Part shown: positions 46,574 through 59,369 of the stretch, piece by piece
How the letters are laid out: every line of letters begins with the position of its first letter
How positions within the stretch are numbered: position 1 is the stretch's first letter
Origin: an uncultured Clostridia bacterium
Lineage (GTDB): Bacteria; Bacillota; Clostridia; TANB77; CAG-465
Assembly: GCA_934162655.1 (NCBI GenBank)
Contig: CAKPJL010000003.1
Location: 1,714 to 65,713, forward strand
Length of the DNA stretch: 64,000 nucleotides
Direction of reading: 5' to 3'
Program-made: the position numbers and the translations under genes
Notes under the pieces: generated by a model
What the model saw: only the letters and a program-made list of their open reading frames with translations
What the model was told of the DNA's origin: nothing
The model's database searches: none

Positions 46574-46609
46574 GTAAAATAAAAGATAGAAATTTTAACT
46601 TCTATCTTT
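46574..46609 (-). terminator. Terminator closing the Tad-like operon
   Basis: AAAGATAGAA / TTCTATCTTT stem overlapping the stop of 46609..48012, followed by TTTATTTT on the minus strand. Confidence 0.65.
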
Positions 46610-48012
46610 TATTCAATTATAAGTTCTTCATCATTTTTTTGATTTAATGTTATTCCATCTATTTTTTCGTCTATCTTTTGTAAATAGATATTTCCTTCCC
46701 AAACATACATAATAACACTTGATACATTTGGCTTATCAATTACAGTATCTATATAAAACTCATACTTATTTTTGTCATATACAATTACATTCTCATTATT
46801 TTCACTGTCTAAATACAATATATTTTCTTTTGTATCTGAACTTATAATTTCAAATGATAATTTTGTTCTAATTCTATAATTTTCTCCATCATAATACATT
46901 ATTGGTAATTGTGAAACTCCGCTTCCTTTTATTTTTATTTTATTGTCTTTTACATGCTTTACATATTTATCCAAAATTGTAGATTGTGTTGAAAATAGGC
47001 CATATTCTTCTAGTTCTTCTTGCATTTTGGCTTTGTCTATTGTTTCATAATCTATGTTCAAAATTATACTATAATATCTATCAACGATATTAGAAATAGT
47101 AGAATATACACTTCTTTCTTTTACAAATAAGTCAATTGGGGAAATAAATTCTTTTTCATCTTTTACTATTAAGTCTTTTTCGTATGCCTCTTTTGCTACA
47201 TCAAACAAAATATAAGAATACTTATCACTATTAGAAGGTATTTTATCTTCACTTATATTGAATTTTTTTCCTTTTGGTATTAATAGATTATATTGTTTAA
47301 TAATATCACAAGTAAGCTTATTTATTTCTCCTTTATGCATTTTTTTATTTGGATTTATTTTCCCGTTACTATTTTCCAATACTTTTGTTGCAACAAGATC
47401 TGACAATGCATATAATTGCTCAGGAGTAATTTGTGAAATATCACTATAATTTGGATAGACACTGGTATCTAAATTTGCACCTACAAGTTTTACTCTAGCT
47501 TTTGAAAAATACTCTATAAATTCAATAAATGTAATCTTATTTCCTTCATTTTTTTTATTTATTTGTTCTTCTGATATAATGCCATTTTCTACTGCATATT
47601 CAACCCATAATTGATTATCATATTCTTTTTCTATACTGATGAAATTATCTAAATCTACAAGATTTGTAATAGAAGATACAATAATTTTTATTGCTTCTGA
47701 CTTGGTAACACTTTCAAAACTAGTCGATTTAGAATTATTATACATCTGTGATAAGCCATATTTATCCATTTGTTTTGCATAATCATTATATTTAGAATAT
47801 TTTATTACTTTTGCCAAAAATATTATACCTATTATTAGAGCTATGGCAATAATTGCTGATAATACAATTAGTATTAATCTCTTATTTAATAATTTTTTAT
47901 TTTTACCCTCTTTTTTTGGGTTATTTTCTTTTTTATCTTTATTTTCTTTTTTTGCTACACTTTCCTGCTTAACCTTCATATATGCAGGAACTATTTTTTC
48001 ACTATCTGCCAT
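46609..48012 (-). CDS. Hypothetical bitopic membrane protein, last gene of the Tad-like operon
   Basis: 467 aa. Lys-rich cytoplasmic N-tail, TM LILIVLSAIIAIALIIGIIFLA, large extracytoplasmic part. RBS TAGGAGGT overlaps the previous stop. Confidence 0.55.
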   Translation of the reverse strand: MADSEKIVPAYMKVKQESVAKKENKDKKENNPKKEGKNKKLLNKRLILIVLSAIIAIALIIGIIFLAKVIKYSKYNDYAKQMDKYGLSQMYNNSKSTSFESVTKSEAIKIIVSSITNLVDLDNFISIEKEYDNQLWVEYAVENGIISEEQINKKNEGNKITFIEFIEYFSKARVKLVGANLDTSVYPNYSDISQITPEQLYALSDLVATKVLENSNGKINPNKKMHKGEINKLTCDIIKQYNLLIPKGKKFNISEDKIPSNSDKYSYILFDVAKEAYEKDLIVKDEKEFISPIDLFVKERSVYSTISNIVDRYYSIILNIDYETIDKAKMQEELEEYGLFSTQSTILDKYVKHVKDNKIKIKGSGVSQLPIMYYDGENYRIRTKLSFEIISSDTKENILYLDSENNENVIVYDKNKYEFYIDTVIDKPNVSSVIMYVWEGNIYLQKIDEKIDGITLNQKNDEELIIE

Positions 48013-48021
48013 ACGTACCTC

Positions 48022-49299
48022 CTAAGGCATACACACCGGACATGGATAAAATCCTATTACATTTCTTTGTTCACCACTTTTTGGTTTATATACACCTACA
48101 ACTGATGTAGCTTGCTGCTTTGTAGTAACATATATTGGTGTTACATCTTCATGTATAGAGTTAATATACTCTGGACATTTTACATTAGAGTGATATAAAT
48201 TTTTGGAAAATTTAGATCCAACTAAATTTCCTTTTGCATCTTTTTTAGGAATACTTAAATAATATCTATTAACAAGTTCTAGTCTTGAAACACTATATGC
48301 TTGTGTATCTAAGTATTTATTACCAACAGAAATACCTTGAACAAAAGCAAATATTCCTACTTCATCTATATAGTCTCCCATTTTTGCTTCTTCAATTTGT
48401 GGAAAAACAAAATCATAAGTTATACCAGAATTTGATGCATAAAAATTATTGGAATTTACGGAATAAGCTAGTTCATCAGTAATTGTTTTTATAATTACTT
48501 GGTCTTTTACAGCTTTTAGGTGGTTTACTATTTTTTCTAACATCTTTAAGTTTTCGCTATCTTCTTCACTACTGCCTTTATATAAATCTTTATTATTTAT
48601 TATATCATTTGCAGTGCTTACATTTCCTTCTACTAATGTTCCTTTTCTTGTATCAGCTAAATAAAAAGACCATTTTTTTAGTTCACTACTTCCTCTTTTT
48701 CCCACTACATATCCCCTATGAGTAACATAGTCATCCATAGTAAATTCTATTGTGTGGCATGATAATATCTTATCTTTATTTCCACTATATTCTTCTGCAT
48801 TTACTATCTTATAAAGTTTATCTTCATCTTTTTCATTTATAATGTAATAGGTATAAGTATAATATTTTTTAGGTTTTATAGCATGTTCAATGACAGTTGT
48901 ATTATCCCTGCTATACTCTTCTACCGATGAAATATATACACCATTGTAATCTATAATAGCAAGTGCTGGAACAAATAATTGAAGATAACTCTGAGCACTA
49001 ACATTTCCTTTTACACCAAAATTATTATATAATGCTTCAAAAAATGTACTTGCAGCAACATTAGCATTAACACTAATTTTTTTGTCTTCTTCTCCAGAAT
49101 ACCCATAGTCTATATCTTTATCTTCATTTTCAACTTCTTTCATCATGGCTGTTGCATCTTCTATTGCTGAGTTTATAAGCTGTTCATAATACATTTCTTG
49201 TTCTTCTGCCTTTATCGTATATGAGACATTTATATATACAACTATAATTATAGGCAAAGTTATTGCTATAAATATCATAGCAAAGTCTGTTATTTTCAA
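48022..49299 (-). CDS. Hypothetical N-terminally anchored protein (425 aa), Tad-like operon
   Basis: TTG start behind GAGGTGGA. MKITDFAMIFIAITLPIIIVVYINV hydrophobic N-terminus. C-terminal Cys motifs VKCPEY...CPVCMP. Confidence 0.55.
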   Translation of the reverse strand: MKITDFAMIFIAITLPIIIVVYINVSYTIKAEEQEMYYEQLINSAIEDATAMMKEVENEDKDIDYGYSGEEDKKISVNANVAASTFFEALYNNFGVKGNVSAQSYLQLFVPALAIIDYNGVYISSVEEYSRDNTTVIEHAIKPKKYYTYTYYIINEKDEDKLYKIVNAEEYSGNKDKILSCHTIEFTMDDYVTHRGYVVGKRGSSELKKWSFYLADTRKGTLVEGNVSTANDIINNKDLYKGSSEEDSENLKMLEKIVNHLKAVKDQVIIKTITDELAYSVNSNNFYASNSGITYDFVFPQIEEAKMGDYIDEVGIFAFVQGISVGNKYLDTQAYSVSRLELVNRYYLSIPKKDAKGNLVGSKFSKNLYHSNVKCPEYINSIHEDVTPIYVTTKQQATSVVGVYKPKSGEQRNVIGFYPCPVCMP

Positions 49300-49336
49300 T
49301 TATTCCACCTCACTTTCTTTACTCTAAACACATATA

Positions 49337-49906
49337 CTAAATAGCATAATATCTAGCATCAATTACCTTCCATGCTTCATTTTTAACAAATCCTCCATAA
49401 TTTACAACAATTCTATCTTTTGTAGAAGTTGAAATTATTGAATTAAATAATGCCCCTGCAAGAGTTGTATTAGAATTTTTTAACTTTACATAGAATTGGT
49501 CTCCTTGGTTTAATGTGTACATACCATTTTTTACTTTTTTTACATCAAGCGTTGCGGATTTTGTATCTTGCCCAATAATATCAAAAATATCATCTGTATA
49601 ATCAATTCTATATTGAGTAATATGAAGCGAACTGTTCTCTGGGTCTGGTGTTATTACTTGTCTATGAGCTTCTATTTGAATATCATACAAATTATTTGTA
49701 TTAGAAAGAGCTTGTACAAAATCGTTGTACATTTCTTCATCTAAATATCCATTATTTAAAACCTTTTCCACAAATGTTGTTGTCTTTCGAAGTGCAAGAT
49801 TATATGACATATCATCTTGTCTTTCAAAAAAATTATATACAGGAAACAATACTACAAGTGTAACAAATACTATCATTAATATTATAATACTTAAATTATC
49901 TTTCAT
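49337..49906 (-). CDS. Hypothetical N-terminally anchored protein, paralog of 50825..51592
   Basis: 189 aa. IIILMIVFVTLVVLFPVYNFFERQDDMSYNLALRKTTTFVEKVLNNGYLDEEMYNDFV aligns residue-for-residue with the 255-aa paralog. Shared C-terminal GD.F.V.L.N.N.T.A..LF......S....R...NYGG..KNE. Confidence 0.6.
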   Translation of the reverse strand: MKDNLSIIILMIVFVTLVVLFPVYNFFERQDDMSYNLALRKTTTFVEKVLNNGYLDEEMYNDFVQALSNTNNLYDIQIEAHRQVITPDPENSSLHITQYRIDYTDDIFDIIGQDTKSATLDVKKVKNGMYTLNQGDQFYVKLKNSNTTLAGALFNSIISTSTKDRIVVNYGGFVKNEAWKVIDARYYAI

Positions 49907-49930
49907 TTATAGAAATTGCCTCCTTTTTTA

Positions 49931-50395
49931 TTACACATTTATTTTTGCAAGTTCATCTTTGTTTGCTTTTTTTATTAGAATATCTATTTGATACTTTCCA
50001 CTTCCAGAACTAGTAACTTTTTGGTACTTCAAATAATACTTTGAAGCTGGATCTACCAAATTTACAAGTTCATAATATGTAGTTGTATTTGGTATATTAA
50101 ATGATTTTCCATTTTCATCTTGTAAATTTATATTATAGTTATAAACTAAATTTGAATCTTTATCTAAAATATAATTATAATAATATGATATAAGTTGATT
50201 GCCTGTAACTACTCTATATGATGTAGTTGGCACATTCTCAATCAAAGCTTTATCTTCTATTTTCTTTCCGTAATTATATGATGTTTCAGCATAGCTATTA
50301 ACCATATAAAACATTGTTATTGTAGTACTTAGTGCTATTATAAATACAAATATATATGCTGCCATATACATTGCTTCATTAGCATTTTCGCTCAT
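49931..50395 (-). CDS. Pilin-like protein 4 (minor), Tad-like operon
   Basis: 154 aa with RBS GGAGAGGA. MSENANEAMYMAAYIFVFIIALSTTITMFYMV: a short polar leader directly followed by a ~22-aa hydrophobic helix. Confidence 0.5.
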   Translation of the reverse strand: MSENANEAMYMAAYIFVFIIALSTTITMFYMVNSYAETSYNYGKKIEDKALIENVPTTSYRVVTGNQLISYYYNYILDKDSNLVYNYNINLQDENGKSFNIPNTTTYYELVNLVDPASKYYLKYQKVTSSGSGKYQIDILIKKANKDELAKINV

Positions 50396-50410
50396 AACTA
50401 TCCTCTCCTA

Positions 50411-50803
50411 TTATTTTATATCTGTAAAAAATATATTTGCACCATCATCTATTCTTTGACAAGTAACACTAAACTTTCTTTTATAAAAATCAAATTTAGT
50501 CTTGTCGTCTTTTTCCTTTGATAAAATAAACTCTTCTTTTATGATGTTATTATTATAATATACATTTACAATTGCATCATTTTTATATTTATTGTAAGTA
50601 TTAATAAGCTCAAGTCCTGTCATTTCAGTATTATCATACATATCAAAACTAGTAAGTCCTTGCCTTATTGATATATCTGTCTTATCAACCGTTTTGTATA
50701 TATCTCTAAAATAACCAATGACCATAATTATAGAGGAAGTTATAGCAATTGTTACAAGTAAAGATACTGATATCATTATAGCTTTATTTGAAATTTCTGA
50801 CAT
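50411..50803 (-). CDS. Pilin-like protein 3 (minor), Tad-like operon
   Basis: 130 aa with RBS AAAGGAGGA. MSEISNKAIMISVSLLVTIAITSSIIMVIGYF. Confidence 0.5.
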   Translation of the reverse strand: MSEISNKAIMISVSLLVTIAITSSIIMVIGYFRDIYKTVDKTDISIRQGLTSFDMYDNTEMTGLELINTYNKYKNDAIVNVYYNNNIIKEEFILSKEKDDKTKFDFYKRKFSVTCQRIDDGANIFFTDIK

Positions 50804-50824
50804 ATATTTCCTCCTTTAATTATA

Positions 50825-51592
50825 CTAAAAAGCCTTATATTCTTCGTTTTTAATTGTTGCACCATAATTTATATAAACGCGTGGGACCTGAGAAGTTGAA
50901 CTAGAAAAAGTTAGTGCATCAAATAATATTGAAGCAAATGTAATATTTGTGTTTCTTATTATAACTCCAAATTCATCCCCAACAGTCATCGTATATATTG
51001 GTTTTCCATCTTTATCTTTATAATTTAATGGTTTATATGGCATATCTTTTTTATTTATAGCCATATATTCTTTTTCAGTCATTTCGAAATAACTCTTTTG
51101 ATTTACCTGTGCTAAGTAATTTAAAATTTGTTCTTGACCATATATTATATTTGATAATTTATATGTAAGCTCAAATGAATAATTTTTTGTGTCGTATGTA
51201 ATAGTCTTACCATCAAATGTTTTAGCAATTATTCCATTTTTCTCTAAATCTTTGCTTGTGTATTGTGACTCATATATGCTATATTCTAATGTATCAACTA
51301 ATACATTTTTATTATCATACACATTTATAACCGGATTATATGTTTTTGAAATATGCTGAAGCTCAATATCATATGAGTTATTAGTCGCGGCAAGTTCTGA
51401 CACAAATTCATCATACATTTCTTGTGTTAAATAACCCTTTGATTTAACTTGATTAACAAAAGTAGAAGTTATTTTAAGTGCAAGTGTATATGATACATCA
51501 TCTCTTTTTTCAAATGTCATATAAATCGGTAGTATAAAAAATACTAGTGTTGCAAAGATAATAGCAAATATTCTTTGAACAACCTCTTCCAT
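50825..51592 (-). CDS. Hypothetical N-terminally anchored protein, paralog of 49337..49906
   Basis: 255 aa with RBS TAGGAGGA. IFAIIFATLVFFILPIYMTFEKRDDVSYTLALKITSTFVNQVKSKGYLTQEMYDEFV. Confidence 0.6.
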   Translation of the reverse strand: MEEVVQRIFAIIFATLVFFILPIYMTFEKRDDVSYTLALKITSTFVNQVKSKGYLTQEMYDEFVSELAATNNSYDIELQHISKTYNPVINVYDNKNVLVDTLEYSIYESQYTSKDLEKNGIIAKTFDGKTITYDTKNYSFELTYKLSNIIYGQEQILNYLAQVNQKSYFEMTEKEYMAINKKDMPYKPLNYKDKDGKPIYTMTVGDEFGVIIRNTNITFASILFDALTFSSSTSQVPRVYINYGATIKNEEYKAF

Positions 51593-51607
51593 AAATTCCT
51601 CCTAATT

Positions 51608-51976
51608 TTAATCAATTGCTGTAATTTTTATATCTGTTACTGAATCATCTACAACTATTTTAAATTTTTCATTTGGTTTTACAATACTTTTAAATTCATA
51701 AGGTGTATAAGTAGTCTTTCCAACATTTATAGTAATTTTTACTGCACTATTTTGTTCAAAATAGTTTATTAAGTTTATAACATCTGTACCATAAGCATTT
51801 TCTTTTAAAAATATATCTCTTATATAAGAATCATAATTTTCATATAGCTTACTTTGTGAGTTGAGTGAACTTACTCCCTCTTTTGCGGTATTATAATATG
51901 TTAAAACAAGGGAAATAGTAACAATTGCTACTAAAACACTAACTCCAATTGTAATTGCTCTTATAGCATTATCCAT
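51608..51976 (-). CDS. Pilin-like protein 2 (minor), Tad-like operon
   Basis: ORF 51608..51988. The GTG at 51988 lies in the AGGTGGA RBS. ATG 51976 gives MDNAIRAITIGVSVLVAIVTISLVL, parallel to the MDNAQKAIMIGVGLF.. start of the major candidate. Confidence 0.55.
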   Translation of the reverse strand: MDNAIRAITIGVSVLVAIVTISLVLTYYNTAKEGVSSLNSQSKLYENYDSYIRDIFLKENAYGTDVINLINYFEQNSAVKITINVGKTTYTPYEFKSIVKPNEKFKIVVDDSVTDIKITAID

Positions 51977-52012
51977 AAATGTTTCCACCTACCTTTATTT
52001 TGTATATACTTA

Positions 52013-52119
52013 AAAAGAAGTATTTTTTATAAATACTCTATTTTAAATACATACTTCTTTTGTACTTATTTTTTAGTACAAAAGGTATATAACTATATTT
52101 TAGTATAATTATATACCTT
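52013..52119 (-). terminator. Cluster of three hairpins downstream of the major pilin-like gene (attenuator/terminator)
   Basis: 11-bp stem AAGGTATATAA/TTATATACCTT (52082..52119), GTACT..AGTAC (52062..52079), and 9-bp stem AAGAAGTAT/ATACTTCTT (52013..52060) followed by TTT. This is the only gap over 60 nt inside the operon. Confidence 0.5.
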
Positions 52120-52128
52120 AAAAATTAA

Positions 52129-52593
52129 TTATTTAATTCCTTGCTTTTTGAATGAAATACCTACTACTGCATCATTTATTTTTATTAAACTTGCATCATA
52201 CTTTGCAGTTGTAACTATATAATAGCTCATGTCAGAAGTAGATGTTAATTTTCCAACTGCTGGCACATCACTATTAACACTAGTAGATTTTCCGTCAGAA
52301 ATTAATCCACCAAGATTTACTGTTTTACCATTTACATTTGTTAGTTCAATCGCCATTTTAGAGTCACCATGATACTTTTTAACTGAAGCAAGCACTTGTG
52401 AGCCAGTCATAACAGTACCATCATATTCTTGTGTTAATTGCTTTTGTAATTGTGCTGACATAGCAGAAAGTTCACCTGTTGCATTATTTGCAAGTTCTTG
52501 TCCCATACCAGTAACAACCATTACAATTGCTATAATTATGATTGTTATGAAAAGTCCAACACCAATCATAATCGCTTTTTGTGCATTATCCAT
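52129..52593 (-). CDS. Major pilin-like protein candidate, Tad-like operon
   Basis: 154 aa with strong RBS AAGGAGGAAAAAATA. MDNAQKAIMIGVGLFITIIIIAIVMVVTG, then a Ser/Thr/Gly-rich globular part. First structural gene after the platform gene, flanked by hairpins, and visibly less AT-rich than its neighbours. Confidence 0.55.
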   Translation of the reverse strand: MDNAQKAIMIGVGLFITIIIIAIVMVVTGMGQELANNATGELSAMSAQLQKQLTQEYDGTVMTGSQVLASVKKYHGDSKMAIELTNVNGKTVNLGGLISDGKSTSVNSDVPAVGKLTSTSDMSYYIVTTAKYDASLIKINDAVVGISFKKQGIK

Positions 52594-52653: not shown

Positions 52654-54705
52654 TTATAGTGACATAGCACTAAAATATGAAATCATTTGCATTACACTTA
52701 CTATTAGAAGTGGAGCTACAAGATATCCACCAATCAATAATATTAATGGCATAAAGCCTAAAACTTTACCATATGTAACCTTTTTTTGAATAAGTCTTTG
52801 ATTTCCTTCTTTTCTTCTTTCATAGTAAAATCCTCTCTCTGTTTCTAGTTCATCAAACGCATCACGAACTGGAATACGCTCAACTGCTGATTGAAGTTGT
52901 TCTACTATTCTTTGGAAATCTTTATATGGTACAGATTCTTTTAATTCTTCTAGTGCTTCATATGCTCCAGCCTCATAATTATTTAGAGCTGTTGCAATAG
53001 GTTCTTTAAATGCATATGAAAATCTACATAACCATTCAAGTATTGTTTGAACATCAATTCTATCAATATACATAAGCATAAGTATTATTGACTGGAATTG
53101 CATAATTTCATTTTCTTTTTCCATCTCTCTAATCTTATTTCTTATAACAAGAACAATAGATGGAATATAATATGCTATTACGCCAATTACTATTGAAATT
53201 AATACTTGCCAATATTTAACGTAAGAATTTTTAACCTTTTGTATTTTATTATACACTCTATCTACTTCATCTTGATCAACTTGTCCAGTTGCAGAGTCAG
53301 TAAATCTAAGCTCCAAATCTTCACGTGTTACATTTTTATTTTTATATTCATCGATATATGTTTTATCTCTTTCATTTAAAGCTTTAGCAGCCCTTTCTTG
53401 TTCTGCTGACAGCTTACCAAACGATAAGAATTCATCGCTTATTGCTGTATAGACAGAATTAAAATCAATGTATTGTATATTAAACATAAGTATCATAGAA
53501 AGTACAAAACCAAGGAACGCTGCCACAAGCTTATTTACATATAACCATTCAATTGTAAGATATGCATTTGTATTTTTAATAAGTTCTGTATCTTTTCTAT
53601 ATTTTCTTGTATGCTCTTTTGGTTTAAATGCATCTACTAGCATCTTACCAAATTGAGTTCTATAAACTTTATCTTGCCATCTCACACTTGATACTCTATC
53701 AAATTTTATTTCTTCCGAATCTTCTTTAATTATACGAAGCATTAAATAAGAAACAAATATTGATATAATTATTAAGGATTGCATTACAAATCCTATACTA
53801 CTATTGTAAAAATTAGCAAGAGACGGGAAATTTGACTCTGCCCATGATTGCAATGGCTTAATTGCTACAAGTGGCACAACTGCTATTATTGTCAAACTTC
53901 TAAACATGTAATTTATCTTATCACGCTTTAATATTTCAAGATATATATCACTTAAAATATTATTTAAGTTTCTAAGGTATACGGATGTACCATCAACTTT
54001 TCTATCCCCTAGTTCTAGTGTTAAGTATGATACACCTGCAAATAATTTTAGAAATCTATTTGGGGCTGTATCATAATATTTTTCAAGTTCAGCCTCTGGA
54101 TTTTCAGACATCATTGCTTCTTTTATTCTTTTTAATTGAGGAACAATTTCTTTTTCGCCTAAATCATCCATTGCCGCATCAAAAGCTTCTTCAATCATAC
54201 CATGTTCATGGAATGCATGTCTTATGGAAGTGAATGCTTCTGGTAGCTGTCTTAATATCTTTAAAGATACTGAATTTATATTTAAATCTATAATTTTTTC
54301 TGCTACAACCAAAATACCAACTAAACATATAAGTGACATATATAGATCATTAACTAAGTTAACAAGTGTAAATGAAGCTACAAATATGAAAAATAGCATA
54401 ATCATCATAAGTTTTCCTGTATTTTTTCTTATTTCATATTCTGTATAATCATTTGCCATTTCCATTTTTAGTCTAGTTTTTTTAGTATAGTATTTTATTA
54501 TTGGCATTTTAACAAATACCAAATAAGCCGATTGATAAATTCTATCTAGAGTATCTTTTGATAGTTTTTTATCTTTTACTTTTAATTGATCCTTCTCATA
54601 TAGTGTTTTATTTTTAGAATAGTTTTTCTTAGTTCTAAAATAAAATATAAGTGTTGCTGAAAGGATCAAAGCAGCAAATACTACTAATATTATTATAAAT
54701 ACCAT
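52654..54705 (-). CDS. Fused TadB-TadC-like platform protein (two T2SS-F-type modules)
   Basis: 683 aa polytopic protein with two cytoplasmic helical modules. These are LRQLPEAFTSIRHAFHEHGMIEEAFDAAMDDLGEKEIVPQLKRI.. and MQFQSIILMLMYIDRIDVQTILEWLCRFSYAFKEPIATALNNYEAGAYEALEELK.. Each is followed by TM helices. Position directly after the ATPase gene. Confidence 0.6.
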   Translation of the reverse strand: MVFIIILVVFAALILSATLIFYFRTKKNYSKNKTLYEKDQLKVKDKKLSKDTLDRIYQSAYLVFVKMPIIKYYTKKTRLKMEMANDYTEYEIRKNTGKLMMIMLFFIFVASFTLVNLVNDLYMSLICLVGILVVAEKIIDLNINSVSLKILRQLPEAFTSIRHAFHEHGMIEEAFDAAMDDLGEKEIVPQLKRIKEAMMSENPEAELEKYYDTAPNRFLKLFAGVSYLTLELGDRKVDGTSVYLRNLNNILSDIYLEILKRDKINYMFRSLTIIAVVPLVAIKPLQSWAESNFPSLANFYNSSIGFVMQSLIIISIFVSYLMLRIIKEDSEEIKFDRVSSVRWQDKVYRTQFGKMLVDAFKPKEHTRKYRKDTELIKNTNAYLTIEWLYVNKLVAAFLGFVLSMILMFNIQYIDFNSVYTAISDEFLSFGKLSAEQERAAKALNERDKTYIDEYKNKNVTREDLELRFTDSATGQVDQDEVDRVYNKIQKVKNSYVKYWQVLISIVIGVIAYYIPSIVLVIRNKIREMEKENEIMQFQSIILMLMYIDRIDVQTILEWLCRFSYAFKEPIATALNNYEAGAYEALEELKESVPYKDFQRIVEQLQSAVERIPVRDAFDELETERGFYYERRKEGNQRLIQKKVTYGKVLGFMPLILLIGGYLVAPLLIVSVMQMISYFSAMSL

Positions 54706-54714
54706 AAAACACTA

Positions 54715-56607
54715 TCACCCCCAAGCTGTATCAACAAAGTTATCAAATGCTCTCATGTCTTCTGGTGACATATTCTCACGCATTGCTTTAATATTTGCCT
54801 CAGATATTGGATGTGTGAATACATATTCACCATCACGCCATTCAATTATGTTATGATAAGTATAATTGTTATTTTGTGTCATATGTTTAAAGTATTCAAC
54901 AGAATTGTCCATAAATTTATCTAACTTTTGCTCTATTGTTTTTTGTTCTCTATAATCATTGTTATATTCAAATTTCTGTTCTATTGGAACACATTCAGTT
55001 ATTCTTTCAATGTAACGGGTACCATCAACACCTCTTTTTAGATGTATATCGAAGTTTATAACTTGTACAACCTGTACTTCTGCAACATTTTCAGAATTAA
55101 ACATTCCAATTTTTAATAGTGAGTTTCTAAGTGCAGTTATAAGGTTAGGGAAAGTTTTAGCATGGTGTGTAAAAAGTGTGAATTTAGACGCAACCTGTGC
55201 CATCTGAATCATCCAAGCAGCAACCGGATCAGTTGCAACCTCTCCTAGGATATTTACACCACCATCTGTCTTTTTTTGTACATCTAGACCCATTTGTCCA
55301 GTTATTGTTTCAGTTTCACGAAGTGATAGTATATTGTGATTTGGATATATTTTTCTTAAATGTAATTCAAATGCTGTTTCTTGCACACGAATTGTAATTG
55401 TTGGATATAAGTATTTCATTATAGCCATAAGAAGTGTTGTCTTACCACATCCCTGTTCACCAGTAATTGCTGTAACACGAGCACCAGTTATTAAATATTT
55501 TAATAATTCTATTACTTTTTCTTTTCCTTTATGTACTAATAATTGTTCGGCAGATATTAATGTTGGTGGAGCAAACTTTCTTACAAAGAATGCCCAAGAT
55601 TCTGCAAAGTTTGGTCTTAATACAACTACACGCGAACCATCTTTCATCTCATTGATTTTAAAACCAACAGACTCAGAAAGTTGTCCTGGATTATTATATT
55701 TATAAATATTTTGACAGACTCTTTTAAGCTCTGCTTCGCTACCAAATGATAAGAAAGATAAGTATGTAGCTTTACCCTTGTAAAATATCCATACAGAGTC
55801 GTATGACATAGGCATCTTTTTACCATTCATCTGTTCTAAATAATCTTCCATTCCTGTTACTTGATCCAAGAATGAAGGAGGAATACCAGATACACCACCA
55901 GATACTCCATCAATATTCATATCACGAATATCATCTACAACACTATAACCTTTATACCCTTGATATACACGTTGAACAATAATTTCTAGTTTATCATCAA
56001 ATGTTAACATATCAGGTGATATTTCTTTATCAAATATATCATTAATTTCCTCTGCTGTTATTACATAAGAAGAAACCTCCGGATCAAATTCATATTTTGG
56101 AACATCAAGATTATATTTAGTTATAAGTTGTGTAAGTGCTTCAGCCTTATATTCTTTTTTGTAAAAATGAAGTAATATTTCAAACTTATCTTGTGGGGTT
56201 AGTGCCTCTGTATCATCAAAAGGTATTGCATAATTTGCATTAATCCCATTTACTCCATAATTATTTTTAAGTAAGTCAAACATCAAAGTTTTAACATACT
56301 TTTTATCGCTCTTATCTGCATAACCAGCACCTTTTAATGCTTTTTTTAATGCATATTTTACATTTCTTCTTCTTTCAAATTCTTCTTCTGAAAGTGCTAA
56401 ATCGTACAAATTCATACGAGTAATTTCATCAAATTGTTTCTTTATAAATTCTTGCATTTTTTGTATGCTATACTTATCTCTTTCACGAGCCACAATCACA
56501 TTATCTGTTTCTTTTACTGTTGAGCCTTTAATTCTATAAAAGAAGTATCCAACAACAAAAGCAAGTAAAACAACAATAAGCACAATGTTAAGAACAAATG
56601 CAACCAT
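54715..56607 (-). CDS. CpaF/TadA-like secretion ATPase with N-terminal transmembrane anchor
   Basis: 630 aa. MVAFVLNIVLIVVLLAFVVGYFFY TM helix. DIRDMNIDGVSG, KDGSRVVVLRPNFAESWAFFVRKF, Walker A ITGEQGCGKTTLLMAI, IRVQETAFEL, ILGEVATDPVA, THHAKT. Confidence 0.75.
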   Translation of the reverse strand: MVAFVLNIVLIVVLLAFVVGYFFYRIKGSTVKETDNVIVARERDKYSIQKMQEFIKKQFDEITRMNLYDLALSEEEFERRRNVKYALKKALKGAGYADKSDKKYVKTLMFDLLKNNYGVNGINANYAIPFDDTEALTPQDKFEILLHFYKKEYKAEALTQLITKYNLDVPKYEFDPEVSSYVITAEEINDIFDKEISPDMLTFDDKLEIIVQRVYQGYKGYSVVDDIRDMNIDGVSGGVSGIPPSFLDQVTGMEDYLEQMNGKKMPMSYDSVWIFYKGKATYLSFLSFGSEAELKRVCQNIYKYNNPGQLSESVGFKINEMKDGSRVVVLRPNFAESWAFFVRKFAPPTLISAEQLLVHKGKEKVIELLKYLITGARVTAITGEQGCGKTTLLMAIMKYLYPTITIRVQETAFELHLRKIYPNHNILSLRETETITGQMGLDVQKKTDGGVNILGEVATDPVAAWMIQMAQVASKFTLFTHHAKTFPNLITALRNSLLKIGMFNSENVAEVQVVQVINFDIHLKRGVDGTRYIERITECVPIEQKFEYNNDYREQKTIEQKLDKFMDNSVEYFKHMTQNNNYTYHNIIEWRDGEYVFTHPISEANIKAMRENMSPEDMRAFDNFVDTAWG

Positions 56608-56633
56608 TTTTTCACCCTCTTTTTTTTAAAATT

Positions 56634-57446
56634 CTAACTTTCTTTAATCTTAGTAATATCTAGTATCCTTTGCACAATTTCACTTGTAGCAACTATAAGT
56701 TTTCCATTGTAATCATTTTTATCAGCATTTAAGTTCTTATAGAAGAAGTCTATAATATCTCCGTCATTGCATGCATCTGAAAAAATTGCATTATGTGGAA
56801 TAGTATATATTGGCTCTTTTATCTTAAATCTTGATGCAATATTAAATGCAGTGTATTTAGATTTATCATCATAGTCTCCAAGTACATAAATTTTTTGTTT
56901 ATCTTTTAGTGTTTCATCACTGTCTATTTTCTTAAAGAAATCTGTTAGTTTTACTATATCTTGATTTAAAACACAAACTACAACATCTGAGTCGGCTAAA
57001 ACATTATCAATGTCATCTTTTTTACCTTTTGGCAAATCGAGTAAAACCAAATCATATAACTCATCTGCTTTTCTAATTAAATATGTTAAACTCTGCATTA
57101 TTTGATTATACATTTCTATATCATTTGAATTAATTCCATAAAGTATATCAAGTCTATTTTTTAATACAGGTTTTGCATAGTTTTGTATAAAATCAGGTGT
57201 TAACTTATTTGAAGTTATAAGTCTTGAAAGTGCTGATATTCCTATATTAGAGCTTTCAAAAGTTCCACTTGTAACAAGTTCATCATAAGGTGTATATGCA
57301 GATTCCACTTTTCTTGAATTAAAGTTTGTTTGAAGTAAAATGCTTGTTACTTTATGTGTTATTCCCATAAGAGTGGATACGGCTAAAATGGCGTGTGTAT
57401 TTCCTGCCATTGCTTTATCCATACTCCAAAATGTTACTTTTGCCAT
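56634..57446 (-). CDS. ParA/MinD-fold TadZ-like protein lacking a P-loop (copy 2)
   Basis: 270 aa. The Walker A position reads FWSMDKAMAGNTHAILAVSTL. Walker B-like YDLVLLDLPKG is retained. Confidence 0.45.
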   Translation of the reverse strand: MAKVTFWSMDKAMAGNTHAILAVSTLMGITHKVTSILLQTNFNSRKVESAYTPYDELVTSGTFESSNIGISALSRLITSNKLTPDFIQNYAKPVLKNRLDILYGINSNDIEMYNQIMQSLTYLIRKADELYDLVLLDLPKGKKDDIDNVLADSDVVVCVLNQDIVKLTDFFKKIDSDETLKDKQKIYVLGDYDDKSKYTAFNIASRFKIKEPIYTIPHNAIFSDACNDGDIIDFFYKNLNADKNDYNGKLIVATSEIVQRILDITKIKES

Positions 57447-57447
57447 C

Positions 57448-58161
57448 TTAGTCCCTCCTTCTTTTTATTTCGTTTATTACTTGTTTTGCCTTTACATCTT
57501 CTAATATTTCTGCAACCATATCAGCAATTGCTGATATAAAGTACTTAGTATGTTTTTTTACATCTATTATTCCGCTTAATTGAGAATCCATATTTACCAT
57601 TTTATCTTGATCATCATTTGGAATTTCATATTCATTTTCATTCCATTCAATTCCATATGCTGTAAGGCTATCAACAAAGTATTTTTCAGATGCACGTGAC
57701 ATATAATTTTTATAAATGACTCTTGTCATTTTTATTTTTTCTTCACTTGCATTATTAAATATTTTAAATCCATTTGCAATCTCTTTATTTTTTTGAACTG
57801 ATAACACTGTTGATTCTATAAAGAAATATAGTTTATCAAATCCTCTGGCCCTAAAGAATTCGTATGCTTTTGGACTGTCGATATCAATTATTGCAAAATC
57901 ATATAGTCCCATATTAATTCCACGTTCATTCATATAATTATCTATTTCATGGATACTTCCAAATCCTACTGCAAAGTCTATGCCGTTATATTGTGTAACA
58001 TATGACTTTTCAATGCTCATTGATGGTATTACATATTTTAACTTTCTATCAAGCGTTGCATCTATTACTAAAACGGATTTACCCATTATATTTAATGTCT
58101 TTGCTAAATTTATTGCAAAATCATATTTTTCGGTATATCCCATTAACCCTATTACTTTCAT
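57448..58161 (-). CDS. ParA/MinD-fold TadZ-like protein lacking a P-loop (copy 1)
   Basis: 237 aa. The Walker A position reads IGLMGYTEKYDFAINLAKTL. SVLVIDATLD and YDFAIIDIDSP are retained. Confidence 0.45.
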   Translation of the reverse strand: MKVIGLMGYTEKYDFAINLAKTLNIMGKSVLVIDATLDRKLKYVIPSMSIEKSYVTQYNGIDFAVGFGSIHEIDNYMNERGINMGLYDFAIIDIDSPKAYEFFRARGFDKLYFFIESTVLSVQKNKEIANGFKIFNNASEEKIKMTRVIYKNYMSRASEKYFVDSLTAYGIEWNENEYEIPNDDQDKMVNMDSQLSGIIDVKKHTKYFISAIADMVAEILEDVKAKQVINEIKRRRD

Positions 58162-58193
58162 TTTTTCCTCCTAATAACTTAAATACTATTTTG

Positions 58194-59291
58194 TTACTCA
58201 CCTAGTAAGCTATTTCTTTCTTCCTTTTGTGTTTGTATTGAATTTGTAACACCTTCGATTACATTTTCATATGCATCGCCTTGTGTTGATTTATATGAAG
58301 AAATTCCACTTTCAATATTTCTTCTAACTTCTGAGCTTAATTTATTTTTAGCATCTTGTAGCACATTTGCATTTGATTTCATCATTGTTATAATTTGTTC
58401 ATTTGGTTGGTAATTTTCAGTTGTTCTAGATAATGTAGCAGCATAATTCTTATATTTTACTATTAAATCAAATATAGAGTTAACTGTTGCATTATTTGCA
58501 GTAATAGTTGTTGATGCAGTTGTATCTGATGTAGTAGTTTGTTCACCACCAACAGTAGTTTCAGTTGGTGTTGTTGTATTTGCACTTTCTAAATTAAACG
58601 CTTTTGCAATAGCATCAAGCATATATCCTCTTAAAGTATCATTTGTTTCATCAGCTATTTTAACTTGTGCTTCTGGATCTGTGTATTTAGTAGCATAAAG
58701 TTTAGTACCATCATTTAGGTATGAATCAACGATAGCACCATTTAGAATCAATCTTTCATCTTCTGTTAAAGTAAGCCAAAAAGTAGAGCCAGATATTGTT
58801 CCAATTTGTTTTTGTGCAAGCACTATGTAATCTGTACCATTAGGATACATGATACGCACATCAACATAGTCACCTGTTACTAAATCACTTGGCATTAAAA
58901 CAGTATTTATTTCTTGTGACCTTACATCAGCTGAAACTATTTCACTAGTTACCATTGATTTAGTTATAGGAATAGTTGCTGGTATATTGAATTTAGCAAC
59001 ATTTCCAACAATCTCGCTTGTAGAAAGTGCACCAGTAGGTACAGTTCTTTTATGAATATTGACTGTTGTAACCATATCAGAAGTTATTACTTCTCCTTGT
59101 ATAACATCTCTATTTAAAACAGCTACATCTTGAGTATATAGCCTATTATATTTTTTATTTGTTCCAGCTTCATAGCTCTTTATTGTTGAAAGTGACCACC
59201 ATAGAGTAACACCTACTGCTACAAGGCCCACTCCAAAACCAATTCCCATACCTGTGAATAATTTTTTCTTGATTTGATTCATTCCTATCAT
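58194..59291 (-). CDS. CpaB/RcpC-like pilus assembly protein (SAF domain) with Thr/Ser-rich C-terminal extension
   Basis: 365 aa. N-terminal TM, SAF-like DVAVLNRDVIQGEVITSDMV...EIVGNVAKFNIPATIPITKSMV, then GDYVDVRIMYPNGTDYIVLAQKQI. The linker is NTTTPTETTVGGEQTTTSDTTASTT. Confidence 0.7.
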   Translation of the reverse strand: MIGMNQIKKKLFTGMGIGFGVGLVAVGVTLWWSLSTIKSYEAGTNKKYNRLYTQDVAVLNRDVIQGEVITSDMVTTVNIHKRTVPTGALSTSEIVGNVAKFNIPATIPITKSMVTSEIVSADVRSQEINTVLMPSDLVTGDYVDVRIMYPNGTDYIVLAQKQIGTISGSTFWLTLTEDERLILNGAIVDSYLNDGTKLYATKYTDPEAQVKIADETNDTLRGYMLDAIAKAFNLESANTTTPTETTVGGEQTTTSDTTASTTITANNATVNSIFDLIVKYKNYAATLSRTTENYQPNEQIITMMKSNANVLQDAKNKLSSEVRRNIESGISSYKSTQGDAYENVIEGVTNSIQTQKEERNSLLGE

Positions 59292-59307
59292 AATTTAACC
59301 TCCATGA

Positions 59308-59325
59308 GCATTAAGTAATTAATGC
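59308..59325 (-). promoter_or_regulatory. Palindrome in the 5' leader of the Tad-like operon
   Basis: GCATTAA TTAC TTAATGC (7-bp arms), immediately upstream of the GGAGG RBS of the CpaB-like gene. Confidence 0.3.
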
Positions 59326-59340
59326 CTTTTAACTTCAAAA

Positions 59341-59369
59341 AGTATATATTATTTTTAATCTTTTTTCAA
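59341..59369 (-). promoter_or_regulatory. Sigma-A type promoter of the Tad-like operon
   Basis: TTGAAA, 17 nt, TATACT on the minus strand, about 45 nt upstream of the first start codon and just downstream of the corA terminator. Confidence 0.5.

What the first reader, a model, noticed from the sequence alone, without database searches (positions are those of the whole stretch)
46574..59369. Thirteen-gene Tad-like type IV filament operon with non-canonical parts list in a spore-forming Firmicute
One promoter (59341..59369) and one closing terminator (46574..46609) frame 13 abutting genes. In order they are a CpaB/RcpC-like SAF protein, two ParA-fold TadZ-like proteins, a CpaF/TadA-like ATPase and a fused TadB-TadC platform. 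Then come a major pilin-like gene, three further pilin-like genes, two paralogous N-anchored proteins, and 425-aa and 467-aa anchored proteins. It departs from described Tad/Flp loci in several ways. There is no ~50-60-aa Flp pilin with the G/xxxxEY motif; all intergenic gaps are under 60 nt except one filled with hairpins. There are no TadE/TadF-type leaders. There is no prepilin (A24/TadV) peptidase gene anywhere in the 64 kb. The ATPase is membrane-anchored, and the platform is a single two-module polypeptide, as in archaeal ArlJ-type proteins. The set looks like a distinct, possibly archaeal-like branch of the type IV filament superfamily. It is followed by three genes for giant or secreted surface proteins.
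Basis: partly seen in the sequence, partly recalled or inferred. Interest (0 to 1): 0.85.

Follow-up and report, generated by a model that had tools for sequence, protein, structure and literature searches.

The report
Published Tad-like pilus operon of TANB77
This is a real 12-13-gene operon for a very divergent Tad-type pilus in an uncultured gut Clostridium, but the same cluster was described in 2024 as the conserved TANB77 "pilus gene cluster", so it is a known system whose odd features remain unexplained.

Summary
Thirteen abutting minus-strand genes (59291..46609) lie between a corA terminator and a 17-bp terminator hairpin.

My tests support a CpaB-like SAF protein, a TadZ/CpaE-like protein and a membrane-anchored secretion ATPase closest to CpaF. 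A 683-aa polytopic protein shows only weak TadB/TadC similarity. A major pilin has a 54-residue N-terminal helix. There is no Flp pilin and no A24 peptidase in the 64 kb.

The cluster is not new. Kim et al. 2024 (Nat Commun 15:10726) described it as the pilus gene cluster conserved in 122 of 129 TANB77 species, with the same parts list. They tested one pilin-like protein immunologically.

I add four points:
- The whole operon type also occurs in cultured Bacillota (Paenibacillus, Cohnella, Vallitalea, Anaerocolumna, Pseudoflavonifractor).
- None of about 135 loci carries a prepilin peptidase motif within 10 kb.
- The ATPase family is monophyletic and as far from CpaF as from VirB11.
- The pilins share an invariant MDNAQKA|IMIGVGLF N-terminus.

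The "archaeal-like" reading is unresolved. Verdict: already known as a cluster, interesting as a distinct, unstudied Tad-like family.

The parts
59341..59369 (-). Promoter-like site upstream of gene 1 (TTGAAA-17-TATACT)
   Evidence: Found with 10 of 12 matches. Such sites are at chance frequency in this A+T-rich DNA. The position is plausible: it lies after the corA terminator hairpin and 50 nt before the first ATG.
58194..59291 (-). [quoted passage not shown]
   Evidence: Pfam SAF 2.8e-6 and ChapFlgA 3.1e-7, both above cut-off. TIGR03177 CpaB 5.2e-9, below cut-off. The family profile against canonical CpaB gives hhalign E 3.3e-6, probability 88%, over 132 columns; negative control 0.75.
57448..58161 (-). 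Gene 2, 237 aa: degenerate ParA/MinD-fold protein (TadZ-like by position only)
   Evidence: Only faint hits: CbiA 0.012, profile against PDB MinD 0.002, hhalign against TadZ 0.07. Conserved G8 and K12 suggest an atypical P-loop. Kim et al. report structural similarity to TadZ.
56634..57446 (-). Gene 3, 270 aa: TadZ/CpaE-like ParA-fold protein without a Walker A lysine
   Evidence: hhalign against canonical TadZ/CpaE gives E 2.5e-8, probability 95%. Faint MipZ, BcsQ and MinD hits. Invariant residues are listed.
54715..56607 (-). Gene 4, 630 aa: membrane-anchored secretion ATPase, a divergent relative of CpaF/TadA
   Evidence: Walker A is GEQGCGKTT. PDB phmmer best hit is CpaF at 1e-7; the family profile hits CpaF at 5.7e-23, FlaI at 1e-12 and VirB11 at 8e-8. 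Pfam T2SSE is only 0.0028. The N-terminal membrane helix is conserved in all 15 family members tested.
52654..54705 (-). Gene 5, 683 aa: polytopic (about 8 membrane helices) putative platform protein with two modules
   Evidence: Eight hydrophobic segments. The AF2 model (pLDDT 65) shows the same pattern twice: long helix, four short helices, long helix. hhalign: N half against TadB 4e-4, C half against TadC 2e-3. No Pfam, PDB or Foldseek hit. Kim et al. report TadC- and TadB-like halves.
52653..52681 (-). Promoter-like site just upstream of the major pilin gene (TTCATA-17-TATAAT)
   Evidence: Found. Inference only; it overlaps the 3' end of gene 5.
52129..52593 (-). Gene 6, 154 aa: major pilin candidate, N-terminus MDNAQKA|IMIGVGLFITIIIIA
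   Evidence: It has the best ribosome-binding site and is followed by hairpins. AF2 pLDDT 78.9: helix 4-57 followed by a beta-rich head. M1, N3-A7 and G11-I19 are invariant in 121 homologues that share only 42% mean identity. No Pfam or Foldseek hit.
51990..52130 (-). Three hairpins after the major pilin gene (probable partial terminator or attenuator)
   Evidence: -42.7 kcal/mol, z = -8.7, and none of 200 shuffles folds as well.
51608..51976 (-). Gene 7, 122 aa from the ATG: pilin-like, MDNAIRA|ITIGVSVL
   Evidence: Homologues in 63 of 80 loci.
50825..51592 (-). Gene 8, 255 aa: N-anchored module, paralogue of gene 11; a carrier for add-on domains in other species
   Evidence: BLASTP against gene 11 gives 2e-25. 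Orthologues carry C-terminal Laminin_G_3 or ALK/LTK glycine-rich domains.
50411..50803 (-). Gene 9, 130 aa: pilin-like, MSEISNKA|IMISVSLL
49931..50395 (-). Gene 10, 154 aa: pilin-like, MSENANEA|MYMAAYIF
49337..49906 (-). Gene 11, 189 aa: N-anchored core component; in other species it is extended to as much as 1273 aa by adhesin-type domains
   Evidence: Conserved in 74 of 80 loci and in Paenibacillus. Orthologues carry PKD, Big_13 and glycine-rich domains.
48022..49299 (-). Gene 12, 425 aa: N-anchored core component with a C-terminal CPxC motif
   Evidence: Conserved in 65 of 80 TANB77-type loci and about 40 of 55 other Bacillota loci. No family hit.
46609..48012 (-). Gene 13, 467 aa: N-anchored accessory protein, not part of the core
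   Evidence: Present in only 38 of 80 loci and duplicated in some.
46574..46609 (-). Terminator hairpin closing the operon
   Evidence: 17-bp stem followed by a U-rich tail, -16.2 kcal/mol, z = -6.2. The next gene has its own strong promoter-like site at 46549..46521.

Best explanation
The operon encodes a type IV filament machine of a very divergent Tad-like kind. It is orthologous to the 'pilus gene cluster' conserved across the uncultured gut order TANB77.

Proposed mechanism:
- A hexameric CpaF-like ATPase (gene 4), tethered to the membrane by its own N-terminal helix, powers a polytopic two-module platform (gene 5).
- The platform extracts pilin subunits (gene 6 as the major pilin; genes 7, 9 and 10 as minor ones) from the membrane by their hydrophobic N-terminal helices and stacks them into a surface filament.
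- A CpaB-like SAF protein (gene 1) and two degenerate ParA-fold proteins (genes 2 and 3; gene 3 is TadZ/CpaE-like) scaffold or position the machine.
- Genes 8, 11 and 12 are N-anchored pilus-associated proteins. In other species genes 8 and 11 carry lectin, PKD, Ig-like or glycine-rich domains, so they most likely display adhesive modules on or at the tip of the filament.
- The pilins carry a short conserved leader ([KR]-A followed by I/L-x-I/M-G/A). It is probably cut by a prepilin peptidase encoded elsewhere in the genome.
- A promoter-like site and a triple hairpin around gene 6 would give excess major-pilin transcript.

Shown here: gene order and its conservation, homology of the ATPase, CpaB and TadZ proteins, pilin architecture, and add-on domains in orthologues.

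Inferred: filament formation, adhesion as the function, leader cleavage, and the transcript structure.
For: - ATPase: family profile against the PDB gives CpaF 5.7e-23, FlaI 1e-12 and PilT 2e-9. TIGR03819 (TadA family) matches 35 of 38 members.
- CpaB: hhalign E 3.3e-6. TadZ/CpaE: E 2.5e-8. Negative controls 0.75.
- Platform: 8 hydrophobic segments, a repeated helical pattern in the AF2 model, and weak in-register hhalign matches to TadB (4e-4, 191 columns) and TadC (2e-3).
- Major pilin: AF2 pLDDT 78.9 with a 54-residue N-terminal helix and a beta-rich head. The N-terminus is invariant while the head varies.
- Four proteins share the [KR]A[IL]x[IM][GA] motif 7-9 residues from Met1.
- Orthologues of genes 8 and 11 carry PKD, Big_13, Laminin_G_3 and ALK_LTK_GRD domains.
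- Genes 1-12 are syntenic in 80 related loci whose flanks differ. The same core order occurs in Paenibacillus, Cohnella, Vallitalea, Anaerocolumna and Pseudoflavonifractor.
- Published: Kim et al. 2024 reached the same assignments with AF2 and Foldseek against AlphaFold DB, and found the cluster in 122 of 129 TANB77 species (PMC11680825).
- Denise et al. 2019 note that all MSH loci also lack a peptidase gene (PMC6668835).
Against: - No filament has been seen, because TANB77 is uncultured.
- The platform has no Pfam T2SSF hit in any of 18 members, no PDB profile hit and no Foldseek hit against the PDB.
- The pilin model has no structural match in the PDB.
- No pilin-family, N_methyl, Flp or TadE model matches any small protein.
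- No prepilin peptidase lies within 10 kb in about 135 loci, and I could not search whole genomes.
- The ATPase falls below every curated family cut-off.
- Gene 2 is only faintly ParA-like.
Confidence: 0.8

Rival explanations
1. The same machine works mainly as a partner of contact-dependent antagonism or secretion rather than as a simple adhesin. The pilus would bring target cells close so that toxins can be delivered, as proposed for the Myxococcus Kil Tad-like system.
For: In Paenibacillus, Acetivibrio and Vallitalea the homologous operon sits next to type VII secretion variants. An EssC-like gene lies within 10 kb in 16 of 55 non-TANB77 loci (see also L081). Garrett et al. 2024 report that T7SSg and T7SSh are always adjacent to 'Tad pilus' genes (PMC11217815).
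Against: No EssC or WXG100 gene lies near the operon in the window or in any of 80 TANB77-type loci. The flanks in TANB77 are not conserved. Garrett et al. themselves say the co-location may be coincidental.
Confidence: 0.1
2. It is a DNA-uptake or nutrient-uptake filament (competence-type pseudopilus) serving a reduced-genome, host-dependent bacterium.
For: TANB77 genomes are small and the clade is uncultured (PMC11680825). Contigs carrying the operon reach about 1.3 Mb. The operon is kept in about 95% of species, and the ATPase is about 74-93% identical across 65 of the 80 related loci (about 61% in the remaining 15), which suggests a core physiological role.
Against: No ComEA, ComEC or DprA-like gene lies in or next to the operon. 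The variable lectin, PKD and Ig add-on domains and the fast-evolving pilin head fit surface recognition better than DNA uptake.
Confidence: 0.06
3. It is a conjugation-type or type IV secretion-related module of a mobile element, not a pilus of the core genome.
For: The ATPase also matches VirB11 and TrbB models (18 and 14 of 38 members), and TIGR03819 is named 'conjugal transfer-associated'. The window carries T4SS remnants elsewhere: coupling proteins at 9974-11869 and 24621-26453, and a T4SS pilin at 24224-24619.
Against: Kim et al. report a single copy in 95% of TANB77 species. In my loci the operon sits among housekeeping genes and carries no relaxase, VirB4 or coupling protein. The T4SS genes in the window lie 20-45 kb away and are not syntenic with it. 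G+C content does not differ from the surroundings.
Confidence: 0.03

Closest known systems
TANB77 conserved pilus gene cluster (Kim et al. 2024, Nat Commun 15:10726; genes 927-938 of HRGM_Genome_2725)
   Same: - Same gene order and near-identical lengths: 358/231/280/640/693 aa there against 365/237/270/630/683 here, followed by seven small N-anchored 'pilin-like' proteins.
- Same assignments: CpaB, TadZ, CpaE, TadA/CpaF with one membrane helix, fused TadC/TadB with 8 membrane helices.
- Same nearest outside homologue of the ATPase (Paenibacillus).
- Same habitat and low G+C content.
   Different: - This window is a different species: its ATPase is 93% identical to that of Clostridium sp. CAG:1219.
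- The order of the small genes differs.
- The window has short (255 and 189 aa) versions of the modular proteins, whereas protein 938 there has 621 aa.
- I could not obtain their sequences for a direct alignment, and I could not verify the GTDB placement of the window.
'Tad pilus' genes adjacent to T7SSg/T7SSh in Paenibacillus and Acetivibrio (Garrett et al. 2024, Microlife 5:uqae013)
   Same: My loci from Paenibacillus (including sp. HW567 and P. anaericanus), Acetivibrio and Vallitalea carry the same core order: SAF, ParA, ParA, anchored ATPase, two-module platform, small pilins, gene 11-like, gene 12-like.
   Different: There is no T7SS next to the operon in TANB77 or in the window. ATPase identity is only 35-48%. 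The pilin leaders differ (MEGELGSGARIAIALIV, MENLQTYLKWVIGLLF).
Canonical Tad/Flp (type IVc) pilus, e.g. Caulobacter Cpa or Aggregatibacter Tad
   Same: It has CpaB, a TadZ/CpaE-type ParA protein, a CpaF-type ATPase followed directly by the platform, pilin genes in the same locus, and a single-locus organisation.
   Different: - No Flp pilin, TadV or TadE/F/G.
- Pilins are 120-155 aa with a globular head rather than about 60 aa.
- The ATPase has an N-terminal membrane anchor and a roughly 250-aa extension. Its core is only 23% identical to CpaF, no closer than to VirB11/TrbB.
- The platform is one polypeptide that Pfam T2SSF does not detect.
- There are two ParA-fold genes.
Archaeal type IV pilus / archaellum systems (ArlI/ArlJ, Epd-like)
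   Same: - Single-polypeptide two-module platform.
- Pilins with a [KR]-[GA] cleavage-type motif and no Glu at +5.
- The ATPase profile hits FlaI and archaeal GspE2 second after CpaF.
- Denise et al. derive Tad from an archaeal ancestor by platform fission.
   Different: - It has bacterial-type CpaB.
- There is no class III signal peptidase in the locus.
- The ATPase core is only 22% identical to FlaI/GspE2.
- Grouping with archaea in neighbour-joining trees depends on the distance used (17-85% bootstrap).
MSH pili
   Same: Loci that systematically lack a prepilin peptidase and presumably borrow one encoded elsewhere (Denise et al. 2019).
   Different: MSH is a diderm T4a-derived system with a secretin and is unrelated in gene content.

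Membership tests
Tad/Flp (type IVc) pilus system | CpaF/TadA-family assembly ATPase | tested here: inconclusive
   CpaF is the best PDB hit (1e-7 for the single sequence, 5.7e-23 for the family profile), and TIGR03819 matches 35 of 38 members. All scores are far below the curated cut-offs, and Pfam T2SSE is only 0.0028. In neighbour-joining trees the family never joins the CpaF clade with support (0-23 of 200).
Tad/Flp (type IVc) pilus system | TadB and TadC platform proteins, one T2SSF domain each | tested here: inconclusive
   The window has one 683-aa protein instead of two. No Pfam T2SSF hit in 18 members. hhalign gives only 4e-4 (N half against TadB) and 2e-3 (C half against TadC), whereas the TadB-against-TadC control gives 7e-16. 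Foldseek against the PDB found nothing. Kim et al. report AFDB Foldseek matches.
Tad/Flp (type IVc) pilus system | Flp-family pilin (about 50-80 aa, G/XXXXEY) | tested here: not met
   No small ORF with such a motif lies in or around the operon. The pilin candidates are 122-154 aa with the motif KA|IMIGV and no Glu-Tyr. No Pfam Flp hit.
Tad/Flp (type IVc) pilus system | TadV/CpaA prepilin peptidase (A24) in the locus | tested here: not met
   No A24 Pfam hit or GxGD[VAILF][KR] motif in the 64-kb window or within 10 kb in about 135 family loci. The motif did find TadV in control loci L084 and L085. The rest of the genome could not be searched.
Tad/Flp (type IVc) pilus system | TadZ/CpaE ParA-type localisation protein | tested here: met
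   Gene 3 family against canonical TadZ/CpaE: hhalign E 2.5e-8, probability 95%. Gene 2 is only faintly similar (0.07; MinD 0.002).
Tad/Flp (type IVc) pilus system | CpaB/RcpC SAF-domain protein | tested here: met
   Pfam SAF above cut-off, TIGR03177 5e-9, and hhalign against canonical CpaB 3.3e-6 over 132 columns.
Tad/Flp (type IVc) pilus system | TadE/TadF/TadG pseudopilins | tested here: not met
   No Pfam TadE hit. hhalign of the gene 6, 11 and 12 families against TadE/TadG gives E 0.18-0.86. Kim et al. report partial structural similarity of protein 938 to TadE/PilV.
TANB77 conserved pilus gene cluster (Kim et al. 2024) | 10-14 syntenic genes in the order CpaB, TadZ, CpaE, anchored TadA, fused TadC/B, pilin-like genes, with matching lengths | tested here: met
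   Order and lengths match their Table 1. There are 271 species-level genomes of uncultured gut Clostridia with ATPase relatives, and the 80 loci fetched all show the same synteny.
TANB77 conserved pilus gene cluster (Kim et al. 2024) | Host genome belongs to the GTDB order TANB77 | not testable with these tools
   No GTDB taxonomy is on hand. Relatives carry NCBI names such as Clostridium sp. CAG:1219 and CAG:465, 'Clostridia bacterium' and 'Christensenellales bacterium'. Literature searches for these names with TANB77 found nothing.
Archaeal type IV pilus / archaellum-type systems | ATPase within the archaeal ArlI/PilB-type clade | tested here: inconclusive
   Family plus FlaI or plus FlaI and GspE2: 170 of 200 bootstraps with BLOSUM62 distance, but 103, 80 and 33 of 200 with Kimura or gamma distances. 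Core identity is 22%. Only two archaeal sequences were sampled.
Archaeal type IV pilus / archaellum-type systems | Class III signal peptidase (PibD/FlaK/EppA) and class III signal peptides | tested here: inconclusive
   A [KR]A-hydrophobic motif is present, but no peptidase lies in the locus. Cleavage was not tested.
Type IV secretion / conjugation (VirB11/TrbB) | Co-located VirB4, coupling protein, relaxase | tested here: not met
   None of these lies in the operon or its conserved neighbourhood. The T4SS genes elsewhere in the window are unlinked.

The most novel reading that the evidence does not exclude
This operon would represent a separate, Bacillota-wide family of type IV filament machines rather than a member of Tad sensu stricto. 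Its features would be:
- a self-anchored ATPase as distant from CpaF as CpaF is from VirB11;
- an unsplit two-module platform, which may reflect the state before the TadB/TadC fission that Denise et al. infer;
- globular-headed pilins with a T4a-like 'AQKA' leader instead of Flp;
- no dedicated peptidase.

Such a family would be either a deep sister of the archaeal-plus-Tad clade or an independent archaeal-to-bacterial transfer. Cultured, tractable carriers are available, for example in Paenibacillus and Pseudoflavonifractor.
Probability: 0.4. Interest if true: 0.6.

Novelty: already known. Interest (0 to 1): 0.35.

Why it matters
The cluster is the signature trait of TANB77, an uncultured gut order. 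TANB77 abundance predicts the response to checkpoint-blockade immunotherapy. One pilin-like product of the cluster activates dendritic cells through TLR4 and improves anti-PD-1 efficacy in mice (Kim et al. 2024).

Its machinery has only been annotated by structure similarity. Three points found here make it experimentally approachable:
- Homologous operons exist in cultured Paenibacillus, Cohnella, Vallitalea, Anaerocolumna and Pseudoflavonifractor.
- The pilins have an invariant N-terminus and no peptidase gene is linked.
- The ATPase is an outlier within the secretion-ATPase superfamily.

These points also pose a clear evolutionary question about how Tad arose from archaeal systems.

Tried and rejected
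- **Platform, sequence tests.** Pfam and NCBIfam on all 13 proteins and on 18 platform homologues gave no T2SSF hit. The platform profile against the PDB found nothing.
- **Platform, structure and repeat tests.** The AF2 model (pLDDT 65) searched by Foldseek against the PDB gave only spurious helical matches. The N half against the C half by hhalign was not significant (0.05 and 0.01). I therefore cannot confirm the internal duplication, or the TadC-then-TadB order that Kim et al. report. My best matches were the other way round, but weakly.
- **Pilin structure.** The pilin model searched by Foldseek against the PDB gave no match.
- **Other profile searches.** Profiles of genes 2, 3 and 1 against the PDB gave only faint MinD or FlgA hits.
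- **TadE/TadG.** hhalign against genes 6, 11 and 12 found nothing.
- **ATPase phylogeny.** The neighbour-joining result depended on the distance correction, so I do not claim archaeal affinity.
- One local iteration script timed out.
- **Taxonomy.** Literature searches linking CAG:1219 or CAG-465 to TANB77 found nothing. No supplementary files of Kim et al. were held, so I could not align to protein 938.
- **Peptidase hidden in the platform.** I considered a peptidase hidden inside the platform and rejected it, because the platform has no GxGD motif.
- **Downstream genes.** I considered the downstream giant proteins as part of the system and rejected this, because they are not syntenic in any relative.

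Full report
**Observation**

The region 46574..59369 holds 13 consecutive minus-strand ORFs of 365, 237, 270, 630, 683, 154, 126, 255, 130, 154, 189, 425 and 467 aa. The seventh most likely starts at the ATG at 51976, which has an AGGTGG ribosome-binding site.

Gaps between the genes are 1-60 nt. The exception is 140 nt after the 154-aa gene. That gap folds into three hairpins (-42.7 kcal/mol, z = -8.7).

The closing element at 46574..46609 is a 17-bp hairpin with a U-rich tail (-16.2 kcal/mol, z = -6.2). A separate hairpin terminates corA just upstream (z = -5.1).

The proposed promoter at 59369..59341 matches the consensus at 10 of 12 positions. Such matches are as common here as in shuffled sequence (121 against 119), so it is a plausible position only. 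A second promoter-like site lies directly upstream of the 154-aa gene (52681..52653).

The window is low in G+C (about 27%), and the operon's composition does not differ from its surroundings.

**What the proteins are, by my own tests**

- **Gene 1.** It has a SAF domain above the Pfam cut-off and a sub-threshold CpaB match (TIGR03177, 5e-9). A profile of its family aligns to canonical CpaB proteins taken from four annotated Tad loci with hhalign E 3.3e-6 over 132 columns (negative control 0.75).
- **Gene 3.** Its family aligns to canonical TadZ/CpaE with E 2.5e-8.
- **Gene 2.** It is only faintly ParA/MinD-like.
- **Gene 4.** It has Walker A, Walker B and His-box-like motifs, and its best PDB hit is Caulobacter CpaF (1e-7). 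A 38-member family profile gives CpaF 5.7e-23, FlaI 1e-12, archaeal GspE2 1e-10, PilT 2e-9, VirB11 8e-8, GspE 1e-7 and PilB 3.5e-6. It nevertheless falls far below every curated cut-off (Pfam T2SSE E 0.0028; NCBIfam). All 15 family members tested have a strongly hydrophobic N-terminal segment. CpaF, the pXO1 ATPase, TrbB and VirB11 lack it.
- **Gene 5.** It has about eight hydrophobic segments. Its AF2 model (pLDDT 65, pTM 0.54) shows the same pattern twice: long helix, four short helices, long helix. Pfam finds no T2SSF domain in any of 18 homologues. The PDB profile search and Foldseek found nothing. With a broad 70-sequence profile, hhalign gives weak, in-register matches of the N half to TadB (E 4e-4, 191 columns) and the C half to TadC (2e-3). 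The platform assignment therefore rests on position, topology, these weak matches and the published AlphaFold DB comparison.
- **Gene 6.** It models as a 54-residue N-terminal helix followed by a beta-rich head (pLDDT 78.9), which is the pilin architecture. It has no structural match in the PDB.

**Pilin leaders**

Among 121 homologues of gene 6 that share only 42% mean identity, M1, N3, A4, Q5, K6, A7, G11-I19 and four further residues (V24, G31, D58, G64, F148) are invariant. MDNAQKAIMIGV is identical in 64 ORFs from related loci.

Genes 7, 9 and 10 share the motif [KR/E]-A-[IL]-x-[IM]-[GA] at 7-9 residues from Met1. From my own knowledge, this resembles the T4a leader MKAQKG|FTLIE, with Ala at -1 and no Glu at +5. 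Archaeal class III signals also use [KR][GA] before the cut.

There is no Flp motif, no N_methyl or TadE match, and no small Flp-like ORF.

**Peptidase**

No A24 family hit or GxGD[VAILF][KR] motif occurs in the window or within 10 kb of the operon in about 135 family loci. The same scan found TadV/CpaA in control proteobacterial Tad loci.

Whole genomes could not be searched. Denise et al. note that all MSH loci also lack a peptidase gene and probably borrow one (PMC6668835).

**Conservation and boundaries**

The ATPase has relatives in 271 species-representative genomes of uncultured gut Clostridia. The closest named one is Clostridium sp. CAG:1219, at 93% identity.

In 80 fetched loci, genes 1-5, 6, 8, 11 and 12 are syntenic, including in a distant group with 61% ATPase identity that has a minimal 10-gene operon. 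Gene 13 occurs in only 38 loci. None of the window's flanking genes is conserved. The three downstream giant-protein genes therefore do not belong to the unit.

Genes 8 and 11 are paralogues (2e-25). Their orthologues in other species are extended by PKD, Big_13, Laminin_G_3 or ALK/LTK glycine-rich domains, reaching up to 1273 aa. This is what one expects of modular, adhesin-bearing pilus subunits.

**It is already published**

Kim et al. 2024 (PMC11680825) describe a stretch of 10-14 genes conserved in 122 of 129 TANB77 species. Their assignments are:

| Protein | Length | Assignment |
|---|---|---|
| 927 | 358 aa | CpaB |
| 928 | 231 aa | TadZ |
| 929 | 280 aa | CpaE |
| 930 | 640 aa, one membrane helix | TadA/CpaF, nearest homologues in Roseburia or Paenibacillus |
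| 931 | 693 aa, eight membrane helices | TadC-like first half, TadB-like second half |
| 932-938 | 143-621 aa | seven pilin-like proteins |

They showed that recombinant protein 938 activates dendritic cells via TLR4 and improves anti-PD-1 therapy in mice. The order, lengths, topology and nearest outside homologue all match this window.

They do not discuss the missing Flp or peptidase, the leader motif or the phylogeny. I could not confirm the GTDB placement of the window.

**Beyond TANB77**

A search of 1.84 billion representative proteins found 336 clusters at 50% identity with E of 1e-30 or better. Among the best 150 listed, most are about 600-650 aa and align from near residue 5. The nearest outside relative is Paenibacillus anaericanus / P. 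guangzhouensis.

A genome scan with distant members returned 55 loci. They come from Cohnella, many Paenibacillus species, Vallitalea, Pseudoflavonifractor capillosus ATCC 29799, Anaerocolumna, Mobilisporobacter, Clostridium sp. KNHs205 and MAGs of Acetivibrio and Ruminiclostridium.

Iterated local HMMs find the SAF protein, the gene 3-like protein, the platform, gene 6-type pilins and the gene 12-like protein in about 40-53 of these 55 loci, depending on the gene. The four loci inspected show the same order.

In Paenibacillus and Vallitalea, an EssC-type T7SS gene lies next to the operon (16 loci). This fits the remark of Garrett et al. 2024 that T7SSg and T7SSh are always adjacent to 'Tad pilus' genes (PMC11217815). 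No such link exists in TANB77.

**Is it archaeal-like?**

I built neighbour-joining trees on 178-179 core columns. The set comprised 15 family members, five CpaF sequences, the pXO1 ATPase, TrbB, VirB11, FlaI and A. fulgidus GspE2.
- The family is monophyletic (200 of 200 bootstraps).
- It never joins CpaF with support (0-23 of 200).
- It groups with the archaeal sequence(s) in 170 of 200 bootstraps under BLOSUM62 distance. Under Kimura or gamma distances the figures are only 103, 80 and 33 of 200.

Core identity of the family to CpaF, to the archaeal ATPases and to VirB11/TrbB is the same (22-23%). By contrast, CpaF is 40% identical to the archaeal ATPases and 42% to VirB11/TrbB.

The family is thus a long-branched outlier whose position is unresolved. 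CpaB and TadZ/CpaE homology tie the operon to Tad.

Denise et al. infer that TadB and TadC arose by fission of a two-domain archaeal platform, with TadC matching the N-terminal domain. Kim et al. report that same order for protein 931. That would fit an unsplit ancestral state, but my tests cannot confirm the order.

**Verdict**

The most likely function is a surface pilus that presents variable adhesive modules. The major pilin would be over-expressed from its own promoter and attenuator, and the leaders would be cut by a peptidase encoded elsewhere. These steps are inferred, not shown.

Noticed in passing
window 60465-63501 (minus strand): Just upstream of corA lie three genes: a DUF5305 protein (362 aa), a 401-aa protein with seven N-terminal membrane segments fused to an S26 signal-peptidase domain (SipW-like), and a 181-aa protein with no family hit. 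Together they look like a separate secreted-fibre (TasA/camelysin-type) module. None is conserved next to the pilus operon in relatives.
   Followed up: partly
window 9974-11869, 23388-26453: Type IV secretion remnants lie among housekeeping genes, suggesting integrated conjugative-element remains. There are two coupling proteins (TraG/VirD4-type, E 6e-78; a second weaker one) and a T4SS pilin (PF18895). An unassigned 277-aa protein with six membrane segments lies next to them.
   Followed up: no
L081, L124-L139 (Paenibacillus); L093, L098, L106 (Vallitalea): An EssC-type T7SS ATPase and WXG100-like genes lie directly beside the homologous pilus operon in 16 of 55 non-TANB77 loci, and never in TANB77. 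This matches the T7SSg/h/i neighbourhoods of Garrett et al. 2024.
   Followed up: partly
L005:16849-18639, L018:16830-18974, L037:15099-16634, L050:17977-21708, L053:17511-21329, L069:15094-16581: Orthologues of window genes 8 and 11 carry different C-terminal add-on domains in different species (PKD, Big_13, Laminin_G_3, ALK/LTK glycine-rich domain). Lengths range from about 160 to 1273 aa.
   Followed up: partly
window 52129-52593 compared with 54715-56607: The major pilin evolves much faster than the motor. Apart from one 97% hit, the listed pilin homologues are about 39-64% identical, while ATPases of the same set of genomes are 80-95% identical. The pilin's first 20 or so residues are nevertheless invariant.
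   Followed up: partly
window 32312-33061 (minus strand): Two adjacent small ORFs (131 and 113 aa) match the first and second halves of the TauE/SafE sulfite exporter model. This is either a split or frameshifted gene, or a two-piece arrangement.
   Followed up: no
window 33123-36672: MreB, an M23 peptidase and a SpoIID homologue lie close together. Relatives carry GerA-type germination genes near the operon (L005).
   Followed up: no
window 36858-46446 (minus strand): Downstream of the operon lie a 443-aa protein (fn3 plus a weak C39-like peptidase match), a 1751-aa protein with no family hit and a 944-aa protein with Listeria-Bacteroides repeats. They sit behind their own strong promoter-like site (46549..46521, 11 of 12 matches with an extended TG) and are not syntenic with the operon in any relative.
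   Followed up: partly
window 48022-49299; L081:15891-16898: The gene 12 family ends in conserved cysteines (GFYPCPVCMP in the window, YFVQECAP in Paenibacillus). This hints at a C-terminal disulfide or metal site in this core component.
   Followed up: no
L086 (Bacillus anthracis pXO1, 65635-84432): pXO1 carries a more ordinary Firmicute Tad-like set: cpaB, an AAA ATPase gene, a CpaF/VirB11 gene and a T2SSF-like gene, with a DUF4320 gene nearby. Its ATPase lacks the membrane anchor and is only 16-18% identical to the family core. The window's system is therefore not the usual Firmicute type.
   Followed up: partly
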